A stretch of DNA of 64,000 nucleotides from Candidatus Omnitrophota bacterium (GCA_025453395.1 JALOQK010000007.1:6524-70523), one strand, 5' to 3'. Positions 15,001-53,288 are shown, counted from the stretch's first letter. Made by a program: numbers and translations. The notes: generated by a model from the letters alone, not told the origin.

Positions 15001-18000
15001 TCCATATTGTAATAATCTGTCTTGTCATTGCCGAATTCGGCATTAAACTGATTCACCCCATCCTTGTTGACAATAGTCGGGAAATATAAATAAGCTCCGT
15101 ATTCAGTTTTGATAAGATAAATATTATCGTTCAACAGCGAACCATTCAAAATAATATTGGGAAGAATATTACCGAGGCGATGCTCAAAATCCACTCCTGC
15201 CTCTACGCGGGCAATCCAGGCATTAAGGCCAATCTTGGTCTGCTTGCCAACAGTAACACAACCAACTTTTCCTAAACGCAACCCCAGCAGAGTTCCATCA
15301 TCTTTCCCAAACAACCCTTCCTTGCCCAAGCCAAGGTTTAACCCAAAAACAGTCACCCCAAAACGGTCTACTACATCACCCTCATATTTAAGCGCTAAAC
15401 CGCCTATACCGTGGGCTATTTTGTGATACTTAGGAAGCTGCAGGATAGTAACGATATCATCATATAAAGCAATTGATGCCAAAGCGATATTGGTGCCTCC
15501 GGTGATTTCTTTCTGGCCGAACCCGTAGATAATATTTACTGCGTCTACTAAAGCGGCAACATCCCCGCCTAATTGAAGCCCAAGATAAGTATTCTTGAAT
15601 TTGCCTAAATTGATCATGGTATTGGCAAAATTCTGCTCTACAGCTATATAAAGCGAAACCAGATCATACAAATTCTTATCTTTGCTGGCCTTCAAAACCT
15701 CAAAATACGTCTGGCGAAGCTGTATGAATGCTTCATAGGCGCTTCCTAAGGTAGCCTCAAAATAAGCGACATCCCTGAATGACATATCTTCGGCAGAAAG
15801 CGCCATATTCTTCTTGCTAAGATTATCATCGCTATAATCTTCAAGCAGTGCGATCACTTTTTCGCTATTAACCTTTCCGGCCTGATCCAAAAGATTTTCA
15901 ACTTCTGCTTTAAGCTGGTTAGGTATAGTAATCTTCTGGCTGTTCTTCTTATCAAGCGCGTCTTGAGCAAAAGTTATTTCTTTATTTAATTTTAAGAGCT
16001 CTTCGCGCAATTCATCGCGGTTGCTGGAAATTTGGTCTCTTATTTCTTTTAGCTTTGCAGAATTCGTGGCTAAAATCTTATCCCGCTCTAATTTAATAAG
16101 CTCTATCTTTTCTTCTCTGGAAAGGTCATGCCCAGCCGCAACCGGCACATTAGGATCATTATTTACTTGAACTGGCGCTGTTTTAACATTCTGCCCTAAG
16201 AGGCTATTGCTTATCTCTTGCCCTAACTGCTTGATCTTTGTTTCTCTCTGGGCAATGCGCCCTTTGATTTCATTAATCTTCGCGTCAAGCGCGGCGATCT
16301 TGTCTTTAAGTTCGGTTATCTTAGCGAAATCATCCACCGCTACTTGGCTGGCGTAATTAATATATGTAAGCTTGGGTGAAAATTGATCAACTGGAGTATA
16401 AGCTATTGCCTGTGCTTGAGGGGCAACAACAGAATTCAAAGTTAAGGCGGAACGGAGAATTGTGCTTTGGGCAAAGCGCTTTAATAAACCGGGATGTTTT
16501 GGAGGACCTTTATTACGAGGAGCCTCTAACTGGATTTTATTTGGCAATACAATACTTTGAGGTTTAAGTGTTTCACCTTGGGATTTATCATCCTCAAGCC
16601 ACTTTTGCTGCATCGCGTCATAAACTGGCTTCTTAGAACCATCTGCTCTTAACCAACCCCAATAATCTTCTTTGTGATCCTGCTTATCCTGCTCTCCACC
16701 TTTTCTCTTGTTGTCCTCAAGGCTCATAAAGAAGATGCTTATGCCTTCTTCTTTTGCCTGACGCCAGATCTCTAATGCTGCCTGTTTCTGGAAATCTTCT
16801 CCCTCTTGGCCAGATACGCCAGCCTCAGCAACATATACAGGTTTAGCAATTCCTGCTCGCTTCTTGGCTAATTCATAAACGCTTACAATATCGCCTATAT
16901 TTCTATACCAATTAAGCCCGATCATATCTACATCGGTTTTCATTATTTGGGCAAGATGCGCAACAATATTTTCATCTCCTAATACCACAGAAATCTTTAC
17001 ATTTTCCCCAAGCTTCTTATGAATATCTTTGGCTAAACTATCCACTAATGCGAAATATTCTTCTATCGGCTTTCCGGTCCAGGCAGTATACCTGCCGGAC
17101 ATGTTGTATTCGTTACCCAACTCAAAAACGACTTCCATCTTGCCCTGTGCAAGTTTCAATACTTCCTGCATATAAGAGATTAAATTGCCTGAAGTCATGC
17201 TTATTCTTTCATCCATAGAAGGAACAACTTGGCCCCAGAAATTAGTAAGGTGATTATAGGCATAGCCGTCCAAAGGAATACCGATAGAAAGCACCTTAGT
17301 TTTTCCCTGCTCAATAATCACCTTTAAGATATCTGTACTTAGCGGATAATAGGTGCGTTCTGCGTTACCGATAAGGCGGACGACATCAGACTTATCGAAA
17401 GTCTGGGCATCAATAGTCAAGCCGTAGAACGGCTTGCCGTTCAATAAAGTCTGGGAACCTTCTAACTTTAAATCCGTCTGCTCTATTGCTGCCTCTTTAA
17501 CTTCTGCCATATCCGGCTCAATTGCTGCTAATTGCTCAACCAGCTTTACCTTCTCCTGCTGTAATTGATTTAATAACTGTTTATCATTTTGCAAATCTTT
17601 TTCTTCCTGCTGCAACAGTTCATTAAGGCTCTTTATTTCTGCGGAGACGGAAACATTTGGATCATTAACGCCTAACTGCGCGTTCTTTTTAAGGATGTCT
17701 GATAAATCCGCCAACAGCTTCTGGTTGGCGTTATGATCATACTGTTGATCAAAACCAAACTGCGGCATAAAAGAAGGCGTATGGTTAGGATCATTGTTTG
17801 CGAATGCTAGATTGCTACCGTTATATGAATTAAAATCAACACTTAAACCCGCCCATGCCCCTGCGACCAAAATAGAGAAGAAGCCAAATATTATGACAAG
17901 CCCTGCCCAAGGAGAATTTTTTCTTGTAGATACAGTTGCAGGACAAGCCTCCTGGCCAAAAACAGTGTTCAAGTTGCGCGCGCTTTCTCTTAAGGAAGCT

Positions 18001-21000
18001 ATGCTTTCCTGCAGAGCCTGAACAGCTTCTTTAAGCTTTTTATAAGCTGCCATTCTTAAAGTTCTCTTGGCAAGTTCCTCGCTTCTTAAAGCATCACCCT
18101 GCAATTTCAAAGCTTCAGACTTATTATAACGATAGCTAAAATCACTCTTAAGGCCGTTTATTATTGCCGCGTGTTCTTCTTCTAAAGAGTTTCCCGCCTT
18201 AGATATTGCCAGGGAAACTATATTCTTATAAGCGGCAAGGCTTAATATTGCTTCCGGAATAGCCAGCGCCATTTTTAAGGCTTGCGCATCAAAATTATCG
18301 CCTATTGTATCTATCATTTCCTGCTCAAGATATGCCCAGATAAGCTCTGCCAATTTTCTGCTCATCTTTTTCTGATCAGGTAAAACATTACCAAATTTGG
18401 ATAAATACGACTTAACCCAAGTATGATACTGGCTTAATGCCGCGTAAGTAAGATGTTCGGTGTTTGAAGGCGCCTGCGGCAAGGCTTCAATCTGACTACG
18501 AAGCCTTGCTATGCTGGCTTCGATTTTCTTCTCTTTACGCTGTAATTGCTTTATCTCTTCCAGAGCTTCCGGGTAAGCACCATTTATTTTTACATCTTTT
18601 TGCAGCTTACTTAACTGACTTGCTGCCTTTTCTTTCAACGCTTCTAACTGAAGAATCCTATCCGCAAGAGGGCTTACCTGCTCAGTGTATTTCTGCACTT
18701 TAGCGGAAACATCAGAGAATTTATTTTTTAACCCAGCCAGGAATTTGTAAGATTGGCCATTAAGAAATTCCGGCTTTGCCAGGCTTAATAATTTATTAAT
18801 TAGCAATAATACGCCTGCCGCGCTAAAGGCGATTATTGACACCGCCCAAGAAATCTTAGTAATAGCACCTAATGCCGCAGCGGGAATAAAAATTGCGATA
18901 AGCACGCTTACTGCTATAACTGCCACCGCCACCAGCACCGCGTTTATTCCAAACCCGCCCTCGCGATGGTGGTTTGACTTTTGTATATTTGTTTCCTCCT
19001 GCCGCTCTAATGCATACTGTGTTTCAATAATCTTCGCGTAAGCCATATCTTGTAAATCTTTATCCAAAGTAGAATAAAATGCCGCGTCAAATTCATTCCT
19101 TGCTTCTCTGTATTTGCCTTCTTTGAATAACATTTCTCCTGAATCAAAATGGCTTGCGAAATCATCCGAATTTTGAGCTATTGCCTGTTCCTGCGGCACA
19201 AGAGGAGCATTTACTAAATAATCCGCGCCATTGGCCTTGGCCAGCGCCCTGTCCATAGCCGCCCAATCATCCACCTCCCGGAAATATTGCGCAGATACGG
19301 TAAAAAATTCCTTGCTTGCCGCGATATTAGCGACATCGCCGGAATTAAGCAACGAATGGCCAAAATAGAAAGCAATCTTTGCCAAAGCGTAAAGCGTGTT
19401 ATCCGTAAGTTTCCTGCTTGCGTTGCTTTTTAATATATCTCGGGCGCGGCCCATTATTGTTTTTATATACCCATCTTCACCTGTTAAGTAAAACGCCTCG
19501 GCAAGGCCTGCTAAAGCTGTCAACTCTTTCATGGTGCTTAAGCCGGGAACACGAAGCGCTTTTCCGAAGAATCTAATTGCCTGCGTATAATTTTCCTTGC
19601 CCAAATAAGCCTGCGCCAGAGATATTAGAACCGCGTCTTTTTTTACCTCAAGTAAATGGTCTTTTCCTATGGCAAACAAGGCCCTCGTAAAATAACCAAT
19701 GGCGTTATTAAACTTTCCAAGCTCAAGCAACCTCATCCCTTCCAAATACTCTTGATCTATTAACTCAAGCGCGGCGACGCGGTCATCTTCCGTAGCAGCC
19801 CTGTCCTCTGCGTTAAGAATACCTTCTTCTTTGCGCATTTTACTTAATTCTTCCGAAGCGTATTTCAATAGATCATTGGCTTTCGTATCACCGGTATCAG
19901 CCAGCTTTAAATAGATGACGGCCTTTTCTAATAATACTATTTTCCGTAAGTTATCGCGTTGTGTAGACGCCATAGTAAGATAACATATTGCGATTTCAAA
20001 GCTAAGTCCCATATACGCCTTTTCTCTGCCTTTAATGCCGGCTACCATCCTGCGGGCTTTGTGAAAATGCCTGATGGCAATTATAGGTTTTCCGGCGTAA
20101 GAGAAAATCGAGCCAAAGTCATATTGCATCTTGTAATTATTCCTATAACGCTTTAATTGATGAATAATTTCAGCTGCTTCCACAATCGCTTTTATTTCTT
20201 CTGGCCTGGGGCCGTCTTTACTCTCAATAATCTTTGCAAAATCCTCAATCGCCGCTTCGGCAGGAAAAACAATTTCATTTACAATCGTTTTCTTTAAGTT
20301 AAAGCTGTTAAGCTCTGCCTTAACGCGCCTTGAATACCTTTTCATATCATATCTTCCCCATCTCCAGAAGAATGGCACCCCTGCCATTGCCATGCCTGCG
20401 GCAGCAGAGTGGTTTAACATTATCTGCGCCAAAATAATTAATCCGGCAACAAAAACGGACTTTAACACATTCAGGACAACTGCGCCAAGGGCGTTATCTT
20501 TATTTCTTAACCAATCAAGGGCTGCTTGCTTGGCCGCTAAATTTACTTCTAACTTATTTACCCGGAAGTCATCTTTTTTATTTTCGGCTACCGGTATAGC
20601 TAATTCTATCCTTGCGATCTGGCGTAATAAAATATTCTCCAGAGACTTTTTCTCATTACCGTTTAACCTCTGCCTTCTCCTGCCGTCTTTAAAGGTAACA
20701 TACACTTTTCCGGAAATCACTAACGCGTCAAATACGTCGCTGGAAAATGCGTATGTTACAATCTGTTCGTCGGATAGAGTATCGGCTGATGCGAGAGATT
20801 CTTTCTGCCGCGCAGTTCCACCGAATAACATATCTCTGGTTTTCGGGAAAAGCCAAAGTAACATTGCCAATGATGCTAATAGCCCAAACACGTAACCTAA
20901 TGACCCCACCTCAGTGCTAATATTACAATTTATAGCTTCCTTCGCTCCGGAAACCTGCCCTGCCTGAGCAGTATTAACCAGCAATGAAGCAAATAACATC

Positions 21001-24000
21001 ATTACTGCTACAGCTGCTGTCTTAATTGGCTGATCAGTAAAGAAGACTCCTACGCGCGTTATCAGAAGGGCGGTCTTTTTATATTGAACTGCAGAAGGAT
21101 ATCTATAATAAAGTTGCCCGCCGAAGGTGCCGCAAAATACTAAATTGTCCGGATTTTTATTATCGCCTTTTACCCAGGAAGGCTGGCTGTTCTTGGGAAC
21201 CATGGCCTTGGGGCTGTAATAAAGCACGGCGCCGCTGGTCGGATCGGCAATTTCTCCATCAAAAACGCGCTTTGCAAATATTTTGGCAATAGAAAGGTGC
21301 TTTGGGCTGGCTTTATAATAATTGGAGTTCTTATCCAGCACGCAGGAATAAGCGTATTTACGTAAGAAAACTGATTGTAAGGTTAAGGTGTATTTCTCGC
21401 CATTCTTGATTCCAAATTCTTTGGCCTTGCCTGACTTAACGCGGTTAACCGCATTCCAGACAATTGCAGAGGCCGCTTCTATATCTTCTTTGTCGCCTTT
21501 TTCTAATCCCGGCAGGAATTCCACGCCTTCACCGCAGAGTATTTTTGAAGCTATTTCAAGGTCTTGGTCATTGTAGGCGATAACCGGAGGCCCGGTAGTC
21601 GTAGGTTTAGCATTAAGAGCCACTTTCTTTATTGGCTGTTCATTTTTATTAATCTTAACAATGTTTTGCGATAACGTCTTTGTATTTGCCGCGGTCCTGT
21701 TAACCGCGCCTGCCGCGCCTGACCCCACGCCGCCGAAACCAAAGAGATAGAAAATAACCACCAAGAATTTATTCTTAAGCTTATCTTTAAAGGCAAGCCA
21801 TCCCAAGAATGGCACTGCTAACCAGGCTATGCTCAAGCTCTGGAGTATCGGGCCTAATCCATTAACCCCCATTGCCATTGCCGGCAGGCAAAGCAAAGCA
21901 GAGATTAAAATTGCGGCTATAGCAAATAATCTAAGCCCATTATTGTATTTTAATGCCGTGGGAGTGCGCTTAATAACCTCTTCTCTTTTTACTTGCGCGT
22001 TCTTTCTTTCAAAATAAGTCCTGATTATTTTAACCGCATCAAGAAATAATTTCTTAGTCAATTTAACAAAATCAACAAACATATACCCGATAGAAGTAAT
22101 GTCATAGACTTTTACGGAAGTCTTTGTATTCACCTTCGCGCCTGCCCCGGGCAATTCAGATGATCGTCGAAAGTCAACCGGCGGCACGCCCTTTTTCAAG
22201 ATCGTCGGGTTCTCTAAATTTGATAAAATCTGCGCCATTCTTGCTGCCCATTCAACACCCAAAGCTATCACGGCAAAAATACCAATACCAATGATAATTA
22301 AAGATATTTTATAAAATATCAATGCGGCTATCCCGATAGTCATAGTGATATTGGCAATCATAGCTATCTTATATATCCGTAACGCTATATATTTTTGGTA
22401 ACCATTTAACACCGGCAAGCTGTTATTGGCATATAAAGATAATGAAGATACTCCGGCTAAGAACCCTACAGCAGAAAGCGCCGCAATACTATTGAATATT
22501 TCTTTAACAGCCATTTCCGGGAAGAAAGCTTTTATGCCAAAAGCAATACCAAGGCCCGACGCCACAGTAATCATCGCGGCCTTCCAAACTTTTCGCGGAT
22601 TAATCTCTTGCTTTATTACCGCCATTTTATACATCTTATACAGTTTAAAATACACGCTGGCCGCTAAAGCTATACCTAAGAAAATAACTAAAGCCTTCAG
22701 AAATACAAGGTTGCTTAAGGCCCCCTGAACAACCTGCTCATTAAGCACAGTCTCTTGCCCTGCCTGCGCCTGCTGTGACATCAATAACACTGCCGAACCA
22801 ATCAGGGCCATCAAAATTCCAGACTGATGCGCATTAGAACCGCCCTTATCATTTTCATCTAAAGAAGATTTGGCATTCTTGTGGATCTGTTTCCTTTCAT
22901 GCCAAAAATATAAGTGTGCGCAGGATTGGACAAACGCAACTGCTCCCAATCCATAAATTGCTAAATCCTGTATTTCTGAGCCGTTTAACATCATGCCTGT
23001 CGTAAAAGGAAGCGCGGTTGCCGCCAAAATCATCCCCACCACAGAGCCATAACTTGTCTTAGGCAATTTTCCTGCAGACAACCTATTCATTATGGCGCTA
23101 TTTAATCTATCAGCCAACCCTGGATCTTCCTGAGAAATTCTATCTACAAAAGCATTAATAATATCAAATAAGAACTCTTTGTTTATTTCATTTTTACGGA
23201 TCATTCGCCTCAATGCACTAACCGATACCTTAAACTCAAATGCTATATCAGGAGTCTCTTTAACTGGACAAGCCAAATCACAGATCCTGGCTTTAAATAT
23301 TCCGTTTTCTTCTGTAATAATGATATTCTCTGGATTTGTAACTATATCGGTGGGGAATTGACCCTTAGTAAGAATATAGAACTGCGCGGCCATTATCCCG
23401 GCAGACTGGAAAATTGCGTGCATTTTGATTTTATCATCTTGGCTCATCTTGCCTTGTGTCATGAAAATCTTAATATAGCGCCTCAAATCAAGACCAGGCA
23501 AATACTCTTTAAAAATTACACGCATAGAGTGATTCTTTTTATTATAACTATAGCCATAATCAGCATACCCATATGGCCTCTGCAATATATTTTGTGCCAC
23601 GGCATATAAACGATGCAGATTGTCAAATTCGGCCTTGCTATGCTCTTCTAAATCCTGAATCTTAATACCCCTGAATTCCCTATCAATAGCCAAAGCAAAT
23701 TCTTTGGTCGTGTCATTTGTTTTAATAGTAACTTTATATACAAACCGATGAGCGCCCTCCCCGATTTTCTCTAAAGAAACTCCCCCTAAGACTATGTCCT
23801 TAATATCCTTTATATTCACTCCCAATTTGTGCGCAATATCATAGAGGTACTTGCCATGGAGATGCTCAATACCGTCATTGGCAACCGGCAGGAATAACGC
23901 GGCAACAGCTTTAAAATGAAAGTTATATTTCTTTGCCCGGGCAAAATTGTCACGGAGTTCATCACTAAAACGTATCTTCTGTATAATAGAAATATCTTGT

Positions 24001-36000: not shown

Positions 36001-39000
36001 CTATTCCATTTGAGGAAGCCATAGAAAATAGAGCCTGCGGCATAACCAGCAATAAAATCCTGAACCGGAGTTGCCCATCTGTAGTTTTCTTTACTCTTGT
36101 TGCCGCCAGAGACAAACGGATAAAGAAAATGATTTGCCAAGCCTGATCCGGATACAGCTACAGCGCTACTTGTAGCAAAGGAATAGGGGTTGACCACATC
36201 TTTTGCTCTTGCCGCAGGCATAATCTTCATTCCGGCAAGCATTAATAACGCGCCAGTTACGGTTTGGAATAAAAACTCGCCCTTATTCTCGCCAAAAGGA
36301 GTAGACCCGCGGATAATCGCCCTTGAGCCGCCTAAAACCGCTCCAGTAACAAGCGCGCTTGTTGTAGGATATTGGCTAAAAACTTTATACAAAGGCACCC
36401 ATCCGAATAGAGGAGATAAGGCTTCCGCGCCTAATGCCCATAAGGCTGCGGTTCTGCCCTGCTGGGTATAGATTCTGGTGGCGACAAGTGGATCTAGGAA
36501 CTCACCATTAACAACTAAACTCTTGCCTTCATTATATAAAGTAAAACCGCCTCCTATGACGTTGTACCAAAATAAAGCTTGCTTGCCAGCTTTTATGGCT
36601 TTAGCTGCCATAGTAGCTTTTCTGGATAATTCATAAAAACCGAATATGCTCCTAAAGGTACTGACTGTTTTTACAGTTGCGGCGCCTGTGGCCGATACTC
36701 CTTCTACTTTTGTTGGAGACAATATTGACCATATAACTGCACCTACCAGTAAAGCCGCATCCGCGCCTAATTCTATGGAATTCTGGGTCAATTCACGTAT
36801 ATAATCATTGGCCGCCATTGCCGGAGAAAGAACGCCCAATATATTCTTCAAGTTATCTTTGTTTGCCGGAACGGATAAATCGTTCTTTAGGGCCAGCTTC
36901 CAGACCTGCATCAAATACGGCTCGAGATTATTTATATAATAGGATTTACCATTGCTTAATATGGCAAAGTTGTTCTCGTTTTTCCCGCTGTCTATACTAT
37001 TGATGAACTCTAATTTCTCAACCCCTTTACCCAGATGTTCAATAGCCCACTCCAGATTGGAATTAAACCTCCCGCTATCTATATAATAAGATTTACCCGT
37101 TGCTTTGCCATCTGCACCAAGCTGAAATATTTCCACATCATCAGAACCCCACCACCACCACGCCTTACTTTCCTTTTTATGCTCTATGTTAACTAAAACC
37201 CTGACAACTGTTGCTTTTGTGCCATCAGTTTTATCTATTTCTTTAACGTTATTAGGATTAGAAAGATAATCTTTTATAAGCGCCTTATCCACATCACTGT
37301 GTTTGGCCTGTTGCTCAAAATTCTCTTTTTGAATCCAGGCCTCCATATATCGATCTGTTCCGCCAACCACGCCTTCATTGAGTTCTTTTGCGCTTTCTGC
37401 TAATTTAACAGGATCCTTGCCCCAATCCGCAGGCAAAGCTTCACTTGAAATAGTAACGGTTTCTCCGGCAGCATTCTTGGCATATTTAGACCACCACCAT
37501 CCGCGCTTTTCTGTGCTGTTAACAATAGCACTCCTGCCGTATCCATCTGTAACTACTTCCCAGGAAACTTTTTTGCCTGGGCGCTTCTTGTCCCATTCAC
37601 TTGCCGGGATCCAATTGATTTTTTCTTTTCCTCCTAAAATAGTATCTACTGTCATCCCCTCATCATCCGGAAGAAGCGCGATATATTTAGATTTGCCATC
37701 TTTGTCTATTTCTTCCTGAAATACCGAGAAAAACGTGTTTCTGTTCTGCCGCAGGCCCCGGAAGCTCGACTCAATAAAATTCTTAAAGCTTGCCGAATCC
37801 CATAATAATATATTGCCTTTTATTCCTAATCCGGATGAAAGGGAAAAACCATCAACCCCGATCCCGTTTAGCGCAAAAAACTGCTTTCCGCTTGCAGTCA
37901 AATCAATCAATCCTTTTTCTGCATCAATATTATATTTTGTTATCTGGGAACTAGCGGTAATCCCTAACTGACCGTCCCCGATATTATCTCTTGCGGCATT
38001 CTCCTTTTTAGAACTATCTTCCCTGCCGGTTTTAATCAATATAGAATTAATACCTACTGAACTATCTTCAACAACCATATTTCTAAAGAAGGACGGCAAT
38101 GGAACGCCTTTATAGGTAAAAATTCCGTCTGCGACAAAGCCTTCCCTGACTGGGCCTTTGGCGCCATAAACAGCATCCCAGGCAATTATTTTCTGCATAG
38201 CGCCCAGATCATCAAAAAGCGATCCGGAAACTCCATAAATAGTAGCTCCCGTGCCTAAGAACTTCCCAAATTCATTAGTAAATTTATGGCCGCGATAAAC
38301 AAGCGGATCTTGAATTGTAGCGGGGTCAATTCTTTGCACTTTATTGTCCTGGATATCGGTATAATCTTTTAGCTTGTAGCTGCCTATGCGGCTTTGAGTA
38401 AGAGACTGGTCTGAACCTTCGCCTCTTTCTATTTCACCCGCGCCGCTAAAGCTTATATTCTTTCCTGTATCAAAATAACGCGCGATGGCTCTTTCTTTCC
38501 CTTTTTCGCCTTCTTTGGTAAATTCAATGCGCGGATTAGCGCCATTTTTAAATACAAGCCCTGATTCATTGGCTAAAATTTTATTCGTATGTATGTAGTT
38601 ATTGGCAATGAATAGCTCATCCGGGCGCGCCCAGGTTATTTTTGAGCCATCTCCTGTATAATGAAGCGTAGGCATTAATAGCTCATTATTCAAAGCAAAG
38701 ACTAACCTGCCGGTTTTGCCGCTGTCAAAAACAACTCCGCCAAAGAAATCATCTGTCTTAAAGATGCCGCGCGAAGTAATGGTTGCAATAGTCGCCACGT
38801 CTTGGGCTTTCGTAGCTTTTGGCTCTTGAGGATTAGCCAAGGATTCATATTTGGAACTATACGGGGAGCTAACTGACCAGTAATTCCCAGCGCCTGTTAA
38901 TGCCGCGCCAGAAAACGCCTTATTCTCCGGCAATACCAAATTCCCTATTAAAGTAGAAAATTCTTTTGCCCCTGAAGCAAAAGACGCGGTTACCTGCTGG

Positions 39001-42000
39001 TCAATCTGGCCTAACGCAGAAGGGCTGGTGCCTGCTGGACCGCTATAGACCCAATCATTGCCATCGCGCTTAAACCATCCTGCTCCTGAAGTCACCGTAT
39101 AATCTATATTCCCTATCTGCTTAAAAGATACTCCATCTTTAGAAGGATTGGCCTTTAAAAAATTCTCCGCCTCATCAAGCAACTTGCCATACAATTCTAA
39201 ATCTGATAAAGAAACATCTTGATCATTATTCAAAGACGCCAAAGCATGAGCCTTATTAAAAAGCTCCTGCCCCTGAGAATCAGCAAAATATCCCTCTGCC
39301 ATATCTTTCTGATCTTGAAGGTTTTTCAGCCTAAACTTAGATAACTCTAACTTCGCTATATTATTGCTCTTATCAACCCTCAATGATTTCAGAAAACCCG
39401 CATAAGGCAAAGCTTCTTTTTCTTTAGCTAGAGATTCTATTTCTCCTTCGACTTGCCTTATAAGTTTATTCAATCTATCGGAGTAAGATTTTCTAAAAGA
39501 TTCTTTATCTTTTACATCAACCGATTTATCTTCTAATACGGCTTTTACTATATAGACTAAATCCGTGTTCTCTCTTCCTTTCGCTAGCAAAGCTTTCATC
39601 CTATCGTTATCTTCTTTTAATTTGGCAATTTCAGGTAGATTCACTGTATGATTTTCATCAATGCCGAATTTCCTGTGAATCAACTGCGGAGAAAAATTAT
39701 CTGCGGGGACAAAATTCCCATCTTTGCTATAGCTTACAAATCTACCTAATAAATCCTGCTCCATGGACTTGGGAGAATTAGGCTTATCGGGAAGCTGTAA
39801 AACCATATGCTCTAAATTACCGGTCCCGGCGTCAAACAACAGGCCCTTTTCAAAATCAAAATTTAACGCCCCCTCAAATAATGTTTGGGTTGTATTTTTA
39901 TCATCCCTGAAAGTTAGCCCCTTGCTTCGAATATCAGCAAAAACCCCGGACTGCTCTAATAGATACTTTTTATAAACTTCCGGATTAGTTTCTTTTAAAA
40001 TAGCTAAATCTTTCTCACCTTTAGTAAAATTCTCTACGTTTAATCTTACCGCCGGATCATAGACTAATTTCTTAGAAGCAGAGATGCGCGTTCCGGCAAG
40101 CCCAAAAGTCGGCTGCATCAAAGGATTATCTACCTGAAGAACATAAGTTAGCCTTCTTGCCTGTCCGGTCTTCTCATCTATCCCGGCAGCATTCACGTCT
40201 ATAAATTTACCCTTACCGGAAATTTCTTGGCCGGGCTTTGCTTCTACTATATTAAGGTAAGCATCAAAGACAATTTTGCTTACTTCGCTTTCAGCTTTTT
40301 CATCGGGGACCTTGCCATTAAGCCAATCATTGATCTGGACTGAATTAATCTTCAGCTGATTCAATATCTTTTGAGCGTCTTCTTTGGTCAAGCCTAATTT
40401 TCCCAGATCAATCCCTGAATCGCTAAGGTTATCCACAGTTACTGATTTTATGTCTGTTTTCTTGCTGCCACGCAATGCCAAAAGAATATCCTGGCCGGGG
40501 TTATACCTTATATTAGGCATATATACTGGCACATAATAATCGCCACCGGTTTTTGTCGCCCCACCCCATGATAATAAAAGCCCATATTTAGGATCTGAAT
40601 GCGCGCCCCGATAGGCCAACGGCTCACCTCTATAAACCAGTGGGCCAGCAGAAATCTGGTTATTGTCAATTGAACTTTGTGTGGCCTGCCAACTGCCAAA
40701 ATTTTCCAATAAGATATCTTCATTATTTATATCTTTCAAAACACTATCCAGGATAACTTCGGCGGCCTTGCCTTTTCCCTCTAAATCTGCTGCCATCGCG
40801 TCCTTTAAAGTCTGGCCTTCCTGCACTTCTACAGTCTTATACTCGCCATTTACCCTTACCCAGAGAGCCGTTTTCTTGTTAAAGATGGTTTCCGCGCTAA
40901 CATTAACCCCGCGTGTAAACCAGGCATCCTGCCCATAAACCACCACCGCGCTTTTTTCTAATAACTCCAGATTATTAACAATTAAATCCGCTTCTTTCAC
41001 CCCGTTTTCTTGAGCTATCTGGCTTAAAGTCTTAGAGCCATCTATTGTTTTCTTTTCTTTGTTTATAACAAGTTCGGTTATTCCAATGGCTGATAGCTGG
41101 ATATCTGGATTAATTTCAAAAGGCCGCACCTTGCTCATCTCGGCAAACACCGGGCTCCAGGAAGCATCCTTGTTAAAATCTACAACACGAGAAACTTGGC
41201 CGTCTTTGCCTTCTTTATCAGAGAAGGAAATTAATGATCCTGTTTTCCATTCGCGCAAACCTATACCCCAGCTAAATGGAACCGCTGTGCCAGATTTTCC
41301 AGCTACACCATCTATTACTCCATAACGGGAATAGTTAAACAGATTTACACTCTGCAAAGAGCCCCCGGTTAAAGCAAACCCGGATTTATCCTGGGTAAAA
41401 TCAAGTATCTTCTGTTTGTCTTCGGATAATTTAAACTGGCCTAAAGTAAAACGGCTGAAGACATCAAATCTTTTATCTCCGGCAAAAATTGCGCTCACCG
41501 CCACATCACCATCAATAAGCTCCGACTGGCCCTTGCCACCACCCACAGGAAAAGCAAAAGAAGGAATATTCTGGGCATAAAAATTATAGTGATTATCAAT
41601 ATTTAGGGCAAACTCTCCGGGCGAAGATATAGAGACAGGGTTGCCATTAACATCAACAGTAATTATCGCAGTTTCAGTCTTGGATAAATTCGGACTTTTC
41701 TGCCAACTGCTATAATTCTGCTCTACTGTAACCTGCTTGATCGCCTCAAGATGCGCCTTAGTCCCGTCCTGGGTAGTTGCCTCCAATGCCACAGGAGGCA
41801 TACTGGCAAGAACATCTGACACATCATCCTTAAGTGCTTCCTGTGCTGCTGTAGCAGGCGGCCTTAGGGATAAAGAAGGATCGGCCTCAAAAACCATATA
41901 AGCCCGCAGGTTCAGGGATTCAGCTCCCCGCATGCTCCATTCATAATTTTCTTCAACTCCGCGCAGGTCCCATTCATTATAATAATGGTAAGGATCGATT

Positions 42001-45000
42001 TCTACTATCCGATCTCCACCCGCGTTTCCTTTGATAAGTTTATCAAGCAGCGATGTTTCGGGATCCAAGTTTAAAGCCGAGTCTTTTGTACCAGCACTTA
42101 AGAAACCTATATCCTGCGGAATAATCCTATACAGCCCTGTGAAAAGGGCGCAACCATCGCTTTTAATAGTGGCGGTTTCCGGGATCTTACGCATGGCATC
42201 CAGAAGAAGCCCGACTGCCTGGTCATGAGAAACCGCTGAAGGCACCTTGACATCCTGCGGGTTATCTACGTTAATATTGTAGCGGCCCAGGAACGCAGAA
42301 AGTCCGTCCTTATCATTATTTTTCAGAATGTTTTCCAGCTCAAGCGCGGCATTTTTGTCTTTTATGGTAAGGCCTAATTTTGCGGCCTCTTCCGGCTTAA
42401 GCGAAGCCTTAAGCATTTCACCAAACTCTTTATCAAGGCCTACACCTTTTAAAAAGCTCGAGATAATGTCCATACGACTAACGGTCCTGTCCGGCTCAGC
42501 AAAGCTCATAGACCTGTTCACGATATACGCGGCAACAAAACCCTTATCAGCTATACCCTCTCTTGCCCCTGTAAGATAAAGAATGCCTGTTTTTGGGGCA
42601 TAATCAAAAAGCACGCTTGTCTTAGCTTCAGAATTAAAGATATCTCCTCTTGCGTCATCGGTCTTGCCGCCGATAAAGATCTCTCCATTGATATTGGCGT
42701 AGAGATTGGGCTTACCTGCCTCGATCTTAGCCATGCCTTTTAATGCGCCATCCTGGATTGTCTTAATATATCCTTCGGGCGCGGCAGGCATCTGCGCTTC
42801 AAGGCTGTGGCCATTTATTAAGCCGGTAGTGTATTGAAGATGGGCGCGCCCGTTATTATCCAGATAATATGCCCCTTCGTTACCGAAGCGGGCGATCACA
42901 TCAACCGCATAATCATCAGACAAAGTAAAATTGTATTCTGCGGTCCCGGATAACTGGGCTCTGTATCCCTGCTTATTTACATTATAATAAATACCTTTAC
43001 CTAAATCAGTTTCTCCGGTTAGGGGATCCCAATGCACAAGCGCTGAGTTAGCAAGCTGCGCAGCATAGGCTCTACCGGCGAAATCAATCTTTGCTACCAC
43101 CTGTCCATTATCCTTTATGCCTGAACCTGCGTTCTCTTGCTGTGGAAGAAGCGCCTGCCCAACCGGGACGGTGGCAACCTTATCTAAACCTTCTACAAGC
43201 GCCCTGTCTTGAGGATTCTGAGAATGTAATACAGAATAGCTACCGGCATCTTTCTTTAAATCCTCCCACAACTGACTTGCCTTCTGCATGGCTTTTTGCT
43301 TATCTATAAGGCTTCTGGTATCTGGACTGGAATCAATATCTTTAATCACGCCTGCTAATTCTTTACCCTTATCCCCCATCTTCTCTAATTCCGGGATGGC
43401 TTCCGGAGCAGGGATTTGTGCGGACTGAGAAACCGGGCCAATGCCATTTGCCATTACCTCGCCAGTGGCTCCGACGCGATTTCCAGTGGAATTAAAATAA
43501 AGTTGGCCATCATGCGCCTCTAATAATCCAGTAGCTATGCCCTCAAATTCTTTGCCGTTGCTTTTTACCGAGGTTAACGCCTCAACTGTCATTTCTTTTG
43601 GCGAACGCTTAATGTCCCATTTGGCATTACTATCACCGTCAAAATCCGCCTGAATATCTAAATTCTTAATCGTGTAAGATTGCGCGTTCTCTAATCCCTG
43701 GATCAAAGAATTCCCGGAATAAGAAAATTCTTTTCCCGGTTCATAAGTAAAACGGCTGGACATGTTCGCCCAGCTTAACTGTTTATTGGCGTTTGCCCCG
43801 AACATGGCATCTTTACCGTCTTTGCCAAAAAGATGCGTATAGGTGGAAATTTTCTCTTCGCCTTCTTTATTGATCATCTTTAACGATGTCCCGGCCTTAA
43901 AATCCACATGATGCCCTAAATTAGCCACATCATAATGCAAGCCCTCACCAATATTCATCCTACCGTCTAAGGTTGAGAAAGCGATATGCATACCCTCTTT
44001 GCCGGCAACGGCAGTTCCGGTTTCGCCTTTACCTATAATTAATGCCGCGGAAATTCCGCTTGGGTTGGCAGGCTTCTCGCCTTTTCCGCCGCTTGTTTTT
44101 GCAAGATCCGGCAGGATCGGCTGGGCCTCTTGGGCCTCAAAATTATATTCCGCTTTGGCAAGGGTTCTTAAGAAAGGAGTGGAAAATACCGTGCCGTTTT
44201 TACTAACGCTTGCAAAATCTATTGTGGAAGCCAAGCGCACAGGATCATCTATTTCTTGGCCAAAAGTTGCATAGGTGCTTCCAGCGGCAAGGCTGCCTTT
44301 CGCGCCTTCGGAAGTATATTCTAAAGAAGAACCTTTCTTTAATAAAAGCCCGTTCTCCTGACTGTCTTGAGTGACTATTCCCTTGACCCATCCTGAATCA
44401 ACTCCTGTCCCTGCGCCGGGCGAAAGGACTAATTCTGTGCTATTCTTATCCGCGTAATAATTAAACAAACCTAATTTCGCGGAATCAGGAATATCATTGC
44501 CAAAACCGGAAATTCTCCCCTGATGCCCTAATTTGGGATCACCAAAAAGATTACCGTCGCTTGCTACTACAAATCTACCGATAACGTCCTCGGGAGCGTA
44601 TTTAAGTTTACGCGTTGCCCCGCTTTGGCCAAAACCAGTGATATACTGTTTGCCGGCAAAAAATAAAGTATCTCCGACCCTGACATCTGCTCCGGTAGCA
44701 TAACTAATATGCGCGAAAGGCCTATCCGGAGTAACAAATATCACCGCAACATCAGAATTCGGAATATTGGTATATCCATATTCAAACGGCCGCATTGCCT
44801 CTGCTCTATTGAGCGCTAAATCAGGCGTGCTTTTTGTCTCGGGTTTACCATCAATCATATTACCGATATTCTCATTGATAAAAGCGATGTTCTGATAAGT
44901 CATGTTATTGATGTGCCCGCTAAAGCCTTCAGGGGTGATCTGAAAATTATCGCCTTTTACTGTAGAAACCTGCGCTGGATTTGTGCCAGAGCCAATCTTA

Positions 45001-49200: not shown

Positions 49201-49452
49201 AGAAGTAACTGGAGTTGCGGCTTCAAAACCGGAATTTAAGCTTGCGCCAATTGCCGCGGTACCAATAGAGATACCCGCGCTGGTAGCTATTTTGCCCCAA
49301 TCCACTTTAGAAATTTCTCCGCCGCCTGCGGAACTCCGAGCAGCAAAAGCTAATGGTTGTAATATTAAACAAAAAATTATTATTAGGGAAATAAGGTTTC
49401 CCCCTTTCCCCAATCTTTGACTGGTTTTCATCTGCAACTTTTTTTCAGTCAT
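46294..49452 (-). CDS. Exported 1052-aa protein with N-terminal signal/anchor and a G/S/T/A/N-rich N-terminal half; function unknown. Probably co-transcribed with the giant gene (1-nt spacer).
   Basis: ORF track. The N-terminus is MTEKKLQMKTSQRLGKGGNLISLIIIFCLILQPLAFAARSSAGGG. The stop at 46294-46296 is followed by the giant-gene ATG at 46290-46292. Confidence 0.8.
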   Translation of the reverse strand: MTEKKLQMKTSQRLGKGGNLISLIIIFCLILQPLAFAARSSAGGGEISKVDWGKIATSAGISIGTAAIGASLNSGFEAATPVTSETATMGTRFSNTFTGMGNLITNTPGSTAVNAIKPFSAMGDALKNSFALTNMAKGYTTFVAASQVGRLVGVAGNYYGWKPATTMIVSGVAIGATAGFLNPSDALGDAKPTEALNSQINNPSLPTHSFGITQTTNSFSNFGFNTNFSNMLKGASVGALSGFANSAVIAALDRDKINSAKNPGATAQILGMFAGVSATNLGRSIWDPKVYHYDSKYIDAKSGNEVSLDKNKMWQFSDVSVVPKGPLEPGRYLAEPTSNPDILKWTDTKAQIGGGQIFGRFAKAAFVDTFNAQSWPGLAASSMSIIATNSLPEKKKYLAPLVGGLVQSVSYPIFSGMANTYGLDASRYFGSKQDKIEARLRYDYTLRAAGVDLASAKDIALIQKTYKDYRDGKITFEQYNKELNKIASIPFELLLVQGDAQKLSQEQLQNKINNALGANNSGIVEQERINSKALAGSLNLQRGSIDEAQMNRNLAIASLRKQLAEKMPMFAGKVSMGQLKGLADALTTDEALKQIGVTRGQIFASQVYSGVTSGVFESLVTGGLQSALDKNFGDERNMTTKMLFSSGVNMAASVIRGAAWSLGWNNSTADKSEWQNELDFVMPQPYKESFYLTDVKTGSMILDQYGQAVENPSYNAIQDVLSQTSYDRDLLAFNKFVATYNMTPGNGLILHRERMKWDYNQGAEDPRWVASLVADDRNPGLMRSVGASMQQSNVEWANKMFTFGLPLTSERGKAGFGVDSSQISSFAWHNYANSYSAYSLPTLVNIYNSKGLAETLSYLYSQSNQDAAGNAIAGALVQVPGVTRMFNMQPQRLVRLHTLKDVSEPITRQQLAFKYAAKAAGQSENLIWNADYGFTNTFNKQTASNYADNPLARKGGFETLSTEISYPEKPASWLDAYLVDSASELTLKTEQGLQHWYMPADLSRNRYSIQAQVFHGGMGAIETKFWVFPNPMYGVRPQMSESDYLRKSGLTK

Positions 49453-53281: not shown

Positions 53282-53288
53282 ATTATTC

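What the first reader, a model, noticed from the sequence alone, without database searches (positions are those of the whole stretch)
16700..45950. The giant protein is a mosaic of enzymatic domains (C39-like peptidase, kinase-like, two ATP-grasp ligases, GH-A glycosidase, HExxH) rather than a pure adhesin repeat array
Recognisable catalytic motifs are spread along one polypeptide. The C39-type Cys and His blocks (45,5xx-45,9xx) follow directly after the N-terminal membrane anchor. A kinase-like catalytic loop plus DFG-like segment sits at about 23,300. Two complete RimK-like ATP-grasp modules run in tandem at about 28,500-30,900. The GH5-like NE(Y) and (V)AE(A)G catalytic pair lies at about 16,800-17,130, and an HEVAH motif at 99-113. 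This suggests a multifunctional envelope or effector megaprotein that could modify peptides (ligase plus peptidase) and glycans.
Basis: inference. Interest (0 to 1): 0.85.

Follow-up and report, generated by a model that had tools for sequence, protein, structure and literature searches.

The report
Giant multi-enzyme Omnitrophota-type membrane protein

Summary
One open frame runs on the minus strand from ATG 46292 off the window start. It has at least 15,430 codons, no stop and almost no internal repeats. Tools confirm four of the six domain calls. There is an N-terminal C39-type peptidase (Pfam E 2e-9). There are two tandem ATP-grasp ligases, YheC/D-like rather than RimK, with the nucleotide/Mg-site residues conserved. 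There is a clan GH-A TIM-barrel glycosidase whose N-E and E catalytic residues are invariant in 22 homologues. Its AF2 model has pLDDT 89, and its nearest solved families are the beta-1,3-glucanases GH158/GH157, then GH2 and GH17, not GH5. The kinase-like call is unproven: no HMM hit, no homologues, motif at chance level, only sub-significant Foldseek hints. The HExxH is part of a full HExxHxxGxxH metzincin motif, but the domain runs off the window. I also found a BcsA-like processive GT2 module with flanking membrane helices; relatives pair the same GH module with this GT or with an FKS-like glucan synthase. The nearest relatives are partial Omnitrophota MAG proteins, and a Tad/T2SS-like pilus operon lies just upstream. 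Multi-enzyme giant Omnitrophota proteins with N-terminal C39 domains and secretion-system neighbours are already published. This is a new member of a known kind.

The parts
3..46292 (-). Giant ORF. It starts at ATG 46292 (an alternative GTG at 46232 has GGTGGAG upstream) and runs off the window start, giving at least 15,430 codons. The C-terminus is missing.
   Evidence: Six-frame stop scan and translation. An identical Logan contig calls a 14,379-aa product cut by the contig end.
46143..46214 (-). N-terminal hydrophobic segment that looks like a signal peptide or signal anchor (KAWIR-VVAFLVAVVFL-PEQVAQA|V).
   Evidence: Hydropathy scan and direct reading of the sequence. No dedicated predictor was available.
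45513..45917 (-). C39-type papain-like peptidase domain. The candidate Cys (GKSCGS) is codon 45894-45896. The His (GDHYVLV) is codon 45633-45635. The Asp of the 'DP' motif is replaced by Ser.
   Evidence: Pfam PF03412 E 2e-9, above GA, covering profile positions 46-127. The His block aligns with LahT 6mpz and with ComA. The Cys block rests on motif and spacing only.
29799..30986 (-). ATP-grasp ligase module 1: an N-terminal pre-domain plus the ATP-grasp core.
   Evidence: ATP-grasp_3, GSH-S_ATP and TTL hits. NCBIfam MptN E 1e-6. Paralogous to module 2 at E 9e-19. VVVKP, QERI, DWNLRVF, NIS, GIDVM and IEVNG are conserved.
28524..29621 (-). ATP-grasp ligase module 2 (YheC/D-like).
   Evidence: PF14398 E 1.5e-15, above GA, and ATPgrasp_ST 2.9e-6. 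61% identical to the corresponding module of Omnitrophica MAG protein P0001. Catalytic-site residues are conserved.
26184..26963 (-). DUF7790 domain, function unknown.
   Evidence: Pfam PF25046 E 2e-17, above GA. Partial NCBIfam LIC_10091 lipoprotein family hit at 1.3e-7.
17841..25808 (-). First cluster of about 20 hydrophobic, TM-like segments.
   Evidence: Kyte-Doolittle scan, 19-residue windows with score >= 1.7. This is a heuristic.
23049..23831 (-). Putative kinase-like region (LEKIGEGAHRFVYK ... PENIIITEENGIFKARICDLA). Unverified.
   Evidence: No Pfam, NCBIfam, PDB or homologue hits. The single-sequence AF2 model has pLDDT 42. Most of the top 50 Foldseek hits are protein kinases, but at E 0.009-0.2 and TM about 0.13. 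Pairwise BLASTP against CDK2 gives E 0.002 over the Gly-loop only.
16584..17441 (-). Clan GH-A (beta/alpha)8 glycosidase module. The acid/base Glu of GNEYN is codon 17109-17111. The nucleophile Glu of YVAEAG is codon 16824-16826.
   Evidence: 39 homologues. N140/E141/Y209/E236 are invariant in 22 sequences. Profile against PDB: GH158 6e-16, GH157 3e-13, GH2. AF2 pLDDT 89, pTM 0.86. Foldseek top hits are GH2, GH17 and GH157.
9141..15962 (-). Conserved block of unknown function. It is shared colinearly with Omnitrophota MAG protein P0021, and in part with P0005, P0010 and P0020.
   Evidence: blastp/phmmer against retrieved relatives, up to 54% identity over 300 aa. No Pfam or PDB hit.
2979..6107 (-). 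BcsA-like processive GT2 module: four TM helices, a GT-A catalytic core (3402-4721; MDVGH 4581-4595, IIEDT 4302-4316, IQRFA 4182-4196), then further TM helices.
   Evidence: Pfam Glyco_trans_2_3 E 6e-5, below GA. Profile A3 against PDB hits cellulose synthase BcsA at 4e-5, with the DxD-, TED- and QxxRW-equivalent blocks aligned. TM segments. An iterated search links it to FKS-like domains of relatives.
81..113 (-). Metzincin-type zinc-binding motif HEVAHLSGSTH (HExxHxxGxxH). The rest of the domain lies beyond the window.
   Evidence: Regex plus 5000 shuffles; expectation 1.5e-4. No HMM hit on the truncated region.
46294..49452 (-). 1052-aa ORF with no recognisable domain. Its stop codon lies 1 nt before the giant gene's ATG.
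   Evidence: ORF list. No Pfam hit. The identical protein is found on 3 contigs.
50009..63855 (-). Tad/T2SS-like pilus operon upstream on the same strand: a secretin with a TonB_C domain, a fused ParA/TadZ-like + T2SSE ATPase, two T2SSF platform proteins, and a TadE/G-like pilin.
   Evidence: Pfam scans and precomputed Pfam on the Logan contig.

Best explanation
Shown: this is the 5' 46 kb of a giant gene of an Omnitrophota-type bacterium. It encodes one membrane-threaded polypeptide that carries independent catalytic modules. These are an N-terminal signal-like segment plus a C39-type Cys peptidase, two tandem YheC/D-type ATP-grasp amide ligases, a DUF7790 domain, a clan GH-A glycosidase nearest the beta-1,3-glucanase families GH158/GH157, a BcsA-like processive GT2 with flanking TM helices, and a metzincin-type zinc motif at the window edge. 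About 84% of the sequence matches no known family. The gene sits directly downstream of a Tad/T2SS-like pilus operon.

Inferred (my preferred mechanism): the protein is anchored in the producer's own membrane and works as a scaffolded factory for a surface glycopolymer. The GT2 module polymerises and translocates a (beta-)glucan-like chain from the cytoplasmic face. The GH-A module sits on the opposite face, by the parity of the five intervening hydrophobic segments, and trims or remodels that chain. This is what the hydrolases of synthase-dependent exopolysaccharide systems do (BcsA/BcsZ, Psl/PslG). The ATP-grasp ligases add amino-acid or peptide decorations to a glycan or peptide acceptor. 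The C39 and metzincin-like modules process the polypeptide or a partner. The product would serve attachment to a host or prey cell together with the adjacent pilus.
For: Identity:
- The open frame has no stop.
- The nearest relatives are partial Candidatus Omnitrophota/Omnitrophica MAG proteins.
- A Tad/T2SS operon lies upstream.
- The literature describes the same architecture class.

Modules:
- C39.
- ATP-grasp x2, with the Lys/Gln/Arg/Asp/Glu/Asn site residues invariant across five modules.
- GH-A.
- GT2.

Mechanism:
- GT2 and ATP-grasp enzymes need NDP-sugars and ATP, which are cytoplasmic substrates. This is established knowledge of those families.
- About 40 TM-like segments argue for an integral membrane protein rather than a released toxin.
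- The GH-A module is repeatedly fused to this GT or to an FKS-like glucan synthase: 7 of 39 relatives plus JGI locus L002.
- The GH's nearest characterised families are beta-1,3-glucanases, and relatives carry a beta-1,3-glucan-synthase-like domain. That points to one shared polymer.
- Four TM helices precede the GT core and several follow it, as in BcsA.
Against: - No activity, substrate or topology was measured.
- TM calls come from a hydropathy heuristic, so the parity argument is fragile.
- The N-terminus looks like a Sec signal peptide with an AxA site, and the positive-inside rule favours N-in. That would export the next ~6,800 residues, including both ATP-grasp modules. This conflicts with a cytoplasmic ATP supply unless the borderline hydrophobic segment at residue ~3175 is a real TM.
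- The GT2 hit is below Pfam's gathering score. In this window its DxD second Asp is Gly and QxxRW is QRF.
- Published work favours a prey-wall-degrading role for such proteins.
- Only 7 of 39 GH-bearing relatives show the GT, although most of the 39 are fragments.
- No double-glycine sites for C39 processing are enriched.
Confidence: 0.45

Rival explanations
1. Prey-directed weapon, the published 'Archaeovorin' reading. The giant protein is displayed on or released from a predatory or epibiotic Omnitrophota cell with help from the neighbouring Tad/T2SS machinery. Its hydrolases (GH-A, C39, metzincin) digest the prey envelope.
For: - West-Roberts et al. and the 2026 preprint reach this reading from the same kind of domain content and secretion-system neighbours.
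- The N-terminus is signal-peptide-like.
- A Tad/T2SS operon lies directly upstream.
- There is a GH-A hydrolase with an intact catalytic pair.
- The ~3,200-aa TM-free stretch around the GH could be extracellular.
Against: - The nearest GH families act on beta-1,3-glucans and glucuronides, not on peptidoglycan or pseudomurein.
- The same GH is fused to glucan-synthase-like GTs in relatives, which suggests a self-made substrate.
- ATP- and NDP-sugar-dependent modules make no sense outside a cell.
- Dozens of TM-like segments argue against release.
- No LysM, dockerin or adhesin repeats occur in the visible part.
Confidence: 0.3
2. Polyprotein precursor. The giant ORF is translated once and then cut by its own C39-type and/or metzincin-type peptidases into separate enzymes that act independently. 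This is compatible with either reading above.
For: - Two peptidase signatures sit at the two ends of the visible ORF.
- Modules are shuffled between relatives as if autonomous.
- Auto-processing by C39/S8 domains was proposed by West-Roberts et al..
Against: - No double-glycine leader-like motifs are enriched: 1 strict match against 0.38 expected, and that match lies at the HExxH site itself.
- The C39 third triad residue is missing.
- No proteomic evidence is available here.
Confidence: 0.15
3. Artefact: a mis-assembled or mis-called ORF, for example a chimera of many genes or a pseudogene kept open by chance.
For: Only that 84% of the sequence has no known family, and that the window and the Logan contig may derive from the same reads.
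Against: - 46.3 kb without a stop in one frame, while no other frame reaches even 1,100 codons.
- GC skew is uniform.
- Several modules are conserved at 40-60% identity in independent Omnitrophota MAGs, with catalytic residues intact.
- The upstream 1052-aa protein is seen on 3 contigs.
Confidence: 0.02

Closest known systems
Archaeovorin-type giant proteins of Omnitrophota (West-Roberts et al. 2023, bioRxiv 10.1101/2023.11.21.568195; type protein: the 39,678-aa protein of Velamenicoccus archaeovorus), and the 'PF03412 C39 group' and 'multi-enzyme cluster' classes of the 2026 preprint 10.64898/2026.06.07.730766
   Same: - Nearest relatives are Omnitrophota proteins.
- The N-terminal C39 domain sits next to a signal-like segment.
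- There are many TM segments.
- Glycosyl hydrolase, glycosyl transferase and peptidase modules occur among long unannotatable stretches.
- The domains are highly divergent.
- A T2SS/Tad pilus locus lies next door.
   Different: - Only 15,430 aa are visible, and the published set was >= 30,000 aa.
- The visible part has no SecA_DEAD, methyltransferase, NUDIX, PPDK or HEAT hits.
- It carries a tandem ATP-grasp pair and DUF7790. The term 'ATP-grasp' does not occur in the main text of either preprint.
Endo-beta-1,3-glucanase families GH158 (PDB 9oro; 6pal recalled as BuGH158) and GH157 (LaGH157, PDB 9fz9/9g4n), plus GH2 and GH17 catalytic barrels (clan GH-A)
   Same: - (beta/alpha)8 barrel.
- The N-E acid/base after strand 4 and the Glu nucleophile on strand 7 align with those families.
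- Profile E-values are 6e-16 and 3e-13.
   Different: - Sequence identity is only about 15-20%, and TM-scores are 0.55-0.6.
- No Pfam GH model matches the window sequence itself.
- The module is embedded in a giant membrane protein rather than a secreted or lipoprotein enzyme.
- The substrate is unknown.
YheC/D-type and 'sugar-transfer-associated' ATP-grasp amidoligases (Pfam PF14398/PF14397; Iyer et al. 2009, recalled from memory and cited's reference list)
   Same: - The ATP-grasp core has the conserved Lys, Gln/Glu, Arg and Asp/Glu/Asn Mg-site residues.
- The PF14398 score is above the gathering threshold.
   Different: - Two modules lie in tandem inside a giant protein.
- No close solved structure exists; the best PDB profile hit is E 0.005.
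- It is not a RimK family member.
- The acceptor is unknown.
Synthase-dependent exopolysaccharide machines that pair a processive GT2 with a glycoside hydrolase (cellulose BcsA + BcsZ; Psl + PslG). This pairing is established knowledge, not tested here.
   Same: - The GT-A core has D..H, ED and QRF blocks aligned to BcsA's DxD, TED and QxxRW.
- TM helices lie before and after the core.
- A GH partner is present.
   Different: - GT and GH are on one polypeptide, 4,000 residues apart.
- The motifs are degenerate and the Pfam score is below threshold.
- No PilZ or other known accessory domains are present.
C39 double-glycine peptidase domains of bacteriocin/AMS ABC exporters (ComA, LahT, PCAT1) and BtrH-N-like papain-fold domains
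   Same: - The His block aligns, with the Cys block at the expected spacing.
- The Pfam C39 score is above threshold.
   Different: - It is not fused to ABC transporter domains.
- The triad Asp is replaced by Ser.
- No double-glycine substrates are evident.

Membership tests
Peptidase C39 (MEROPS C39 / Pfam PF03412) | Match to the family HMM above the curated threshold | tested here: met
   33.1-37.7 bits against GA 22, E 6e-8 to 2e-9. Only profile positions 46-127 of 133 are covered.
Peptidase C39 (MEROPS C39 / Pfam PF03412) | Catalytic Cys in the N-terminal (Q...)CG block | tested here: inconclusive
   GKSCGSKALFDYLKFKG has the Cys 87 residues before the His, and a Gly at Cys+13 as in ComA. 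No significant alignment covers it; there is only a sub-threshold BtrH-N alignment.
Peptidase C39 (MEROPS C39 / Pfam PF03412) | Catalytic His in the (n)HfvV block | tested here: met
   GDHYVLV aligns with nHFVVL of LahT (6mpz) and with HYYVV of ComA.
Peptidase C39 (MEROPS C39 / Pfam PF03412) | Third triad residue (Asp of the 'DP' motif) | tested here: not met
   yINDPAKGD of LahT aligns with yFSSNHKED. The Asp position is Ser.
Peptidase C39 (MEROPS C39 / Pfam PF03412) | Fusion to ABC exporter TMD/NBD and double-glycine substrates | tested here: not met
   No ABC_tran or ABC_membrane hits occur in 15,433 aa. Double-glycine leader motifs are not enriched.
ATP-grasp superfamily, YheC/D-like family (PF14398) | HMM match above threshold | tested here: met
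   Module 2 scores 57.6 bits against GA 26.8. Module 1 scores ATP-grasp_3 23.4 against GA 23.2 and is paralogous to module 2 at E 9e-19.
ATP-grasp superfamily, YheC/D-like family (PF14398) | Conserved ATP/Mg2+ site residues (Lys of vvKP, Gln/Glu hinge, Arg of DWNxRxF, Asp and Glu-x-Asn) | tested here: met
   K80, Q122, R124, D138-W-N140, R142, N170, D234, E247 and N249 are invariant in five modules (alignment).
RimK family alpha-L-glutamate ligases (TIGR00768) | Score above the family cut-off | tested here: not met
   16.9 bits against a cut-off of 143.4.
Glycoside hydrolase clan GH-A | (beta/alpha)8 barrel fold | tested here: met
   AF2 with a 22-sequence MSA gives pLDDT 89.1 and pTM 0.86. 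333 Foldseek PDB hits have E <= 1e-3. The top hits are GH2, GH17, GH157, GH10 and GH5.
Glycoside hydrolase clan GH-A | Acid/base Glu in an Asn-Glu motif after strand 4, and a nucleophile Glu on strand 7 | tested here: met
   N140, E141 and E236 are invariant in 22 homologues. They align to lgNEse/vtEfG of GH158 and vINEP/tTEfG of GH157.
GH5 (Pfam Cellulase PF00150) | Family-level HMM or sequence match | tested here: not met
   No Pfam hit even at E <= 10. In the profile search GH5 appears only at E 0.011, far behind GH158, GH157 and GH2.
Protein-kinase-like superfamily | HMM or sequence match | tested here: not met
   No Pfam, NCBIfam or PDB hit at E <= 10. No homologues in two large protein searches or in the retrieved relatives.
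Protein-kinase-like superfamily | Bilobal kinase fold | tested here: inconclusive
   The single-sequence AF2 model has pLDDT 41.8. Most of the top 50 Foldseek hits are kinases, but at E 0.009-0.2 and TM about 0.13.
Protein-kinase-like superfamily | Catalytic residues (beta3 Lys, catalytic-loop Asp/Asn, DFG Asp) | tested here: inconclusive
   The Gly-loop aligns with CDK2 at pairwise E 0.002. The beta3 Lys position reads Ala. TDIVTNPEN has its Asp out of register with HRDLKPxN. CDLA stands in for DFG. The loop motif occurs at chance frequency.
Metzincin / zincin metallopeptidases | HExxH, extended to HExxHxxGxxH | tested here: met
   HEVAHLSGSTH at 81-113. Expectation 1.5e-4; 0 of 5000 shuffles.
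Metzincin / zincin metallopeptidases | Met-turn and catalytic-domain fold | not testable with these tools
   Only 33 residues follow the motif before the window ends. No HMM hit on the truncated region.
Processive family-2 glycosyltransferases (BcsA-like) | HMM or profile match | tested here: inconclusive
   Glyco_trans_2_3 scores 23.4 bits against GA 27, E 6e-5. A four-sequence profile hits BcsA 4hg6/5ej1 at 4-5e-5.
Processive family-2 glycosyltransferases (BcsA-like) | DxD, TED and QxxRW motifs, with TM helices on both sides | tested here: inconclusive
   D and H of 'DxDH' and the ED are invariant. In the window the second Asp is Gly and QxxRW reads IQRFA. Four TM helices lie before the core and several after it.
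Archaeovorin-type giant Omnitrophota proteins | Omnitrophota origin | tested here: inconclusive
   The organism was not identified directly, because the genome-contig scans found nothing. The closest relatives of three modules are named Candidatus Omnitrophota/Omnitrophica, and one is named Elusimicrobiota.
Archaeovorin-type giant Omnitrophota proteins | Length >= 30,000 aa | not testable with these tools
   The ORF runs off the window at 15,430 codons, and the Logan contig ends earlier.
Archaeovorin-type giant Omnitrophota proteins | N-terminal C39 near a signal peptide, numerous TM helices, GH + GT + peptidase modules, T2SS-like neighbours | tested here: met
Archaeovorin-type giant Omnitrophota proteins | SecA_DEAD-like, methyltransferase and NUDIX modules | tested here: not met
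   No such Pfam hits occur in the visible 15,433 aa. They may lie in the missing C-terminal part.

The most novel reading that the evidence does not exclude
The N-terminal segment is a genuine Sec signal, and the following ~6,800 residues are exported and delivered into a prey or host cell. That stretch includes the tandem ATP-grasp ligases and, further on, the kinase-like region. Inside the target cell, ATP is available, so the modules would amidoligate (for example glutamylate) or otherwise modify target proteins or wall precursors. The protein would then be a contact-dependent megatoxin carrying ATP-dependent effector enzymes, processed by its own C39/metzincin peptidases.
Probability: 0.07. 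Interest if true: 0.85.

Novelty: new member of a known kind. Interest (0 to 1): 0.4.

Why it matters
Giant Omnitrophota proteins are among the largest predicted proteins known, and their function is unresolved. This example adds concrete, testable modules with intact catalytic residues. One is a GH-A glycosidase nearest to the beta-1,3-glucanase families, which recurs fused to BcsA-like or FKS-like glucan synthases in relatives. Another is a tandem pair of YheC/D-type ATP-grasp ligases, not discussed in the papers I could search. If the GH-GT pairing reflects one shared polymer, part of these giants would build and remodel the cell's own surface glycan rather than digest prey walls. That would shift the current 'cell-wall degradation' reading. 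The conflict between a signal-peptide-like N-terminus and downstream ATP-dependent domains also sharpens the open topology question for this protein class.

Tried and rejected
- Word-indexed homology searches of the GH and kinase regions found nothing.
- Both genome-contig scans found no relative, so the organism could not be named directly. They used a single protein and the A1 alignment.
With A4 it gave one locus.
- phmmer of about 13,500 aa of unannotated sequence against all PDB chains gave no hit at E <= 0.01.
- NCBIfam added only weak ATP-grasp and LIC_10091 hits.
- Single-sequence AF2 of the kinase region failed, with pLDDT 42.
- None of the 42 retrieved relatives contains a homologue of the kinase-like region.
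- The ATP-grasp profile against PDB gave only marginal hits.
- The double-glycine auto-processing idea was tested by motif enrichment, with a negative result.
- Rejected labels: GH5, RimK and 'adhesin repeat array'.
- I considered whether the relatives with an FKS-like domain might be eukaryotic. The dense ORF packing in L002 argues for a prokaryote.


Full report
**1. What is there**

A six-frame stop scan shows one frame on the minus strand open from 46301 to position 3. That is 15,433 codons with no stop, while no other frame exceeds about 1,060 codons. The first ATG is at 46292, one nucleotide after the stop of an upstream 1052-aa ORF. A GTG at 46232 has a better Shine-Dalgarno-like GGTGGAG upstream. 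The ORF runs off the window, so the C-terminus is missing. A Logan assembly contig (SRR12684589_96101, 62 kb) is 100% identical over window 36294-59452. It calls the same gene as a 14,379-aa product cut by the contig end. Below, positions are codon indices counted from 46301, so the window coordinate is 46301 minus 3 times the index.

**2. Is it a repeat array?**

No. Self-comparison in 300-aa pieces finds only two internal similarities. One is between the two ATP-grasp modules (E 9e-19). The other is a duplication of about 130 aa at indices 14959-15192.

**3. Domain by domain**

*C39 peptidase.* Pfam Peptidase_C39 matches at 33-38 bits against a gathering score of 22 (E 6e-8 to 2e-9), but only over profile positions 46-127. 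The His block GDHYVLV aligns with the catalytic His block of LahT (6mpz) and of ComA. The Asp of the following 'DP' motif is Ser. The Cys block GKSCGSKALFDYLKFKG sits 87 residues before the His and has the C39-like spacing, but no significant alignment covers it. The call is right, the Cys is probable, and the triad is incomplete. The domain is not attached to ABC-transporter domains.

*Two ATP-grasp ligases.*
- Module 2 (index ~5560-5925) hits ATPgrasp_YheCD at E 1.5e-15, above threshold, and ATPgrasp_ST at 2.9e-6.
- Module 1 (index ~5105-5500) hits ATP-grasp_3, GSH-S_ATP and TTL weakly, and NCBIfam MptN at 1e-6.
- An alignment of five modules keeps every canonical site residue invariant: VVxKP Lys, QxRI, DWNxRxF, NIS, ID, IExNG. 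The five are the two from this window, two from the Omnitrophica MAG protein P0001, and one from the free-standing protein P0002.
- They are not RimK family members (16.9 bits against a 143-bit cut-off).
- No close solved structure exists.

*GH-A glycosidase.* The window sequence itself hits no Pfam or PDB entry and no word-sharing homologue. An exhaustive HMMER search of 1.84 billion representatives found 39 homologues, 12 of them below 1e-30. Nearly all lie inside proteins of 1,000-7,000 aa. Those with names are partial Candidatus Omnitrophota MAG proteins, and one is binned as Elusimicrobiota.
- Several homologues hit Glyco_hydro_2_C above threshold.
- In a 22-sequence alignment the invariant columns are exactly N-E (GNEYN), a Tyr, the Glu of AEAG, a Gly, a Gln and the Gly of WG.
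- The profile hits GH158 (9oro, 6e-16), LaGH157 (9fz9, 3e-13), 6pal, then many GH2 beta-glucuronidases, GH17 and GH26. GH5 appears only at 0.011. The N-E and E residues align to the catalytic residues.
- AF2 with this alignment gives pLDDT 89.1 and pTM 0.86, with an eight-fold beta/alpha pattern.
- Foldseek against the PDB returns 333 hits below 1e-3, led by GH2, GH17 and GH157 barrels.
- The motif pair is expected 0.02 times by chance.
- The clan call is right. The family label GH5 is not.

*Kinase-like region.*
- No Pfam, NCBIfam or PDB hit even at E <= 10.
- No homologues in a large protein search or among 42 retrieved relatives.
- The catalytic-loop/DFG pattern occurs 6 times in the protein against 4.65 expected.
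- The single-sequence AF2 model is unusable, with pLDDT 42.
- Even so, most of the top 50 Foldseek hits for that poor model are protein kinases, at E 0.009-0.2 and TM about 0.13.
- LEKIGEGAHRFVYK aligns with CDK2's VEKIGEGTYGVVYK at a pairwise E of 0.002.
- In that alignment the beta3 Lys is Ala. The Asp of TDIVTNPEN is out of register with HRDLKPxN.
- Verdict: unproven. If real, it is a divergent and possibly inactive kinase fold.

*HExxH.* A bare HExxH is expected 0.13 times, so one occurrence is weak evidence. The site reads HEVAHLSGSTH, however, which is the full metzincin consensus HExxHxxGxxH. Its expectation is 1.5e-4, and it appeared in 0 of 5000 shuffles. This test is post hoc. Only 33 residues follow the motif before the window ends, so nothing more can be tested.

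**4.

- DUF7790 at 26184-26963 (E 2e-17).
- About 40 hydrophobic, TM-like segments. One is at the N-terminus. There is a cluster at indices 6831-9486 and another at 13095-14920.
- A BcsA-like processive GT2 at indices ~13860-14100.
  - Glyco_trans_2_3 scores E 6e-5, below threshold.
  - A four-sequence profile hits cellulose synthase BcsA at 4-5e-5, with the DxD-, TED- and QxxRW-equivalent blocks aligned.
  - Four TM helices precede the core and several follow it, as in BcsA.
  - In the window the second Asp of DxD is Gly and QxxRW reads QRF, so activity is uncertain.
- A ~2,300-aa block (indices 10113-12386) is conserved with Omnitrophota protein P0021, at up to 54% identity, but matches nothing known.
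- Recognised modules cover roughly 16% of the visible protein.

**5. Relatives and mosaicism**

P0001 is a 2,356-aa partial Omnitrophica MAG protein. It matches indices 4813-5952 at 48% identity, but its first 1,174 residues match nothing in this protein. P0004 (6,953 aa) shares only one ATP-grasp and the GH. P0021 is colinear over indices 9611-12370 and also carries a PEP-utilizers_C domain, a trait reported for Archaeovorins. Modules are therefore shuffled between giant proteins.

One pairing recurs. Seven of the 39 GH-bearing relatives also carry a GT module. Three of them (P0011, P0015, P0035) carry a GT homologous to the window's. The other four (P0013, P0014, P0016, P0017) carry at the equivalent place a Pfam Glucan_synthase (FKS1-like) domain, at E 1.9e-44. 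The single metagenome locus found, L002 on JGI contig Ga0105164_10000024, has a 3,813-aa ORF with the same arrangement, at E 1.9e-51.

**6. Context**

Upstream on the same strand lies a Tad/T2SS-like pilus operon:
- a secretin with a TonB_C domain;
- a fused ParA/TadZ-like + T2SSE ATPase;
- two T2SSF proteins;
- a TadE/G-like pilin.

**7. Comparison with the literature**

West-Roberts et al. (bioRxiv 2023) describe giant Omnitrophota proteins with these features:
- N-terminal C39 domains near signal peptides;
- many TM helices;
- divergent GH, GT, peptidase, methylase, NUDIX and SecA-like modules;
- T2SS neighbours.

They propose prey attachment and wall digestion. A 2026 preprint on complete Omnitrophota genomes reports a 'Peptidase C39' architecture cluster and 'multi-enzyme' giants. 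It finds secretion or pilus machinery flanking 13 of 14 giants, and it also discusses an inner-membrane-anchored cytoplasmic reading. Another preprint notes gigantic Omnitrophota proteins that combine polysaccharide-biosynthesis enzymes with papain-like and metallopeptidase domains. ATP-grasp modules are not mentioned in the main text of the two giant-protein preprints. A three-term search found no paper that discusses them in this setting. The finding is therefore a new member of a known kind, with some new module-level detail.

**8. Mechanism**

The modules and their conservation are shown. What follows is inferred.

GT2 and ATP-grasp enzymes use cytoplasmic substrates, and dozens of TM-like segments argue for an integral membrane protein. 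The GH is repeatedly fused to glucan-synthase-like GTs, and its nearest characterised families cleave beta-1,3-glucans. I therefore favour, at about 0.45, a membrane-anchored factory that makes and trims a surface glycan. The ATP-grasp modules would add amino-acid or peptide decorations, and the peptidase modules would process the protein or a partner.

If the GT core is cytoplasmic, as in BcsA, the five hydrophobic segments between it and the GH region put the GH on the outer face. This depends on a heuristic TM count.

The main rival, at about 0.3, is the published prey-wall-degrading reading. A polyprotein-processing model, at about 0.15, is compatible with either. It gains no support from double-glycine motif counts.

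One conflict remains unresolved. The N-terminus looks like a Sec signal peptide with an AxA site, which would export the ATP-grasp modules unless the borderline hydrophobic segment near index 3175 is a true TM. The most novel reading this leaves open is delivery of ATP-dependent effector modules into a target cell. I give that about 0.07.

**9. Verdict**

- Observation: partly confirmed. Four calls are solid, one is strengthened but truncated, and one is unproven.
- Interpretation: partly supported.
- Novelty: new member of a known kind.
- Interest: 0.4.

Noticed in passing
It has four TM helices before the core and several after it. The profile hit to cellulose synthase BcsA is 4-5e-5. The DxD and QxxRW motifs are degenerate in this copy.
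   Followed up: yes
P0013/P0014/P0016/P0017 and L002:6116-17557: Relatives that carry the same GH-A module also carry a Pfam Glucan_synthase (FKS1/GT48-like) domain at E 1.9e-44 to 1.9e-51. They sit in prokaryote-like, densely packed gene context. From memory, GT48 is regarded as essentially eukaryotic, so a bacterial GH-A + FKS-like fusion family may deserve its own look.
   Followed up: partly
window 81-113, minus strand: The HExxH is part of a complete metzincin consensus, HEVAHLSGSTH (HExxHxxGxxH). The chance expectation is 1.5e-4. The domain continues beyond the window.
   Followed up: partly
window 46143-46292, minus strand: The N-terminus resembles a cleavable Sec signal peptide (K/R, VVAFLVAVVFL, PEQVAQA|V). 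It is preceded by 28 residues if the ATG at 46292 is used. A GTG at 46232 with GGTGGAG upstream would give a textbook signal peptide. Export of the next 6,800 residues would put two ATP-grasp modules outside the cell.
   Followed up: partly
window 26184-26963, minus strand: A DUF7790 domain (Pfam E 2e-17), with a partial match to the Leptospira LIC_10091 lipoprotein family. Function unknown.
   Followed up: no
window 9141-15962, minus strand: A block of about 2,300 aa conserved colinearly with Omnitrophota MAG protein P0021 (MFA5345829.1). Identity reaches 54% around window 11210-12098. No Pfam or PDB match, so it is probably one or more undescribed domains.
   Followed up: partly
window 726-1424, minus strand: A tandem duplication of about 130 aa (index 14959-15090 against 15060-15192; 33% identity, E 6e-13). 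It is the only internal repeat besides the ATP-grasp pair.
   Followed up: no
window 60870-63023 and 63028-63855 (continues in L001:720-2324): In the Tad/T2SS-like operon, the ParA/TadZ-like domain and the T2SSE ATPase are fused in one 717-aa protein. The secretin carries a C-terminal TonB_C domain.
   Followed up: no
window 46294-49452, minus strand: A 1052-aa ORF with no Pfam hit. Its stop lies 1 nt before the giant gene's ATG, which suggests translational coupling. The identical protein is present on three contigs of the public collection.
   Followed up: partly
window 19080-19628, minus strand: Weak TPR-like hits (E 0.004-0.05, below threshold) between TM segments, upstream of the GH module.
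   Followed up: no
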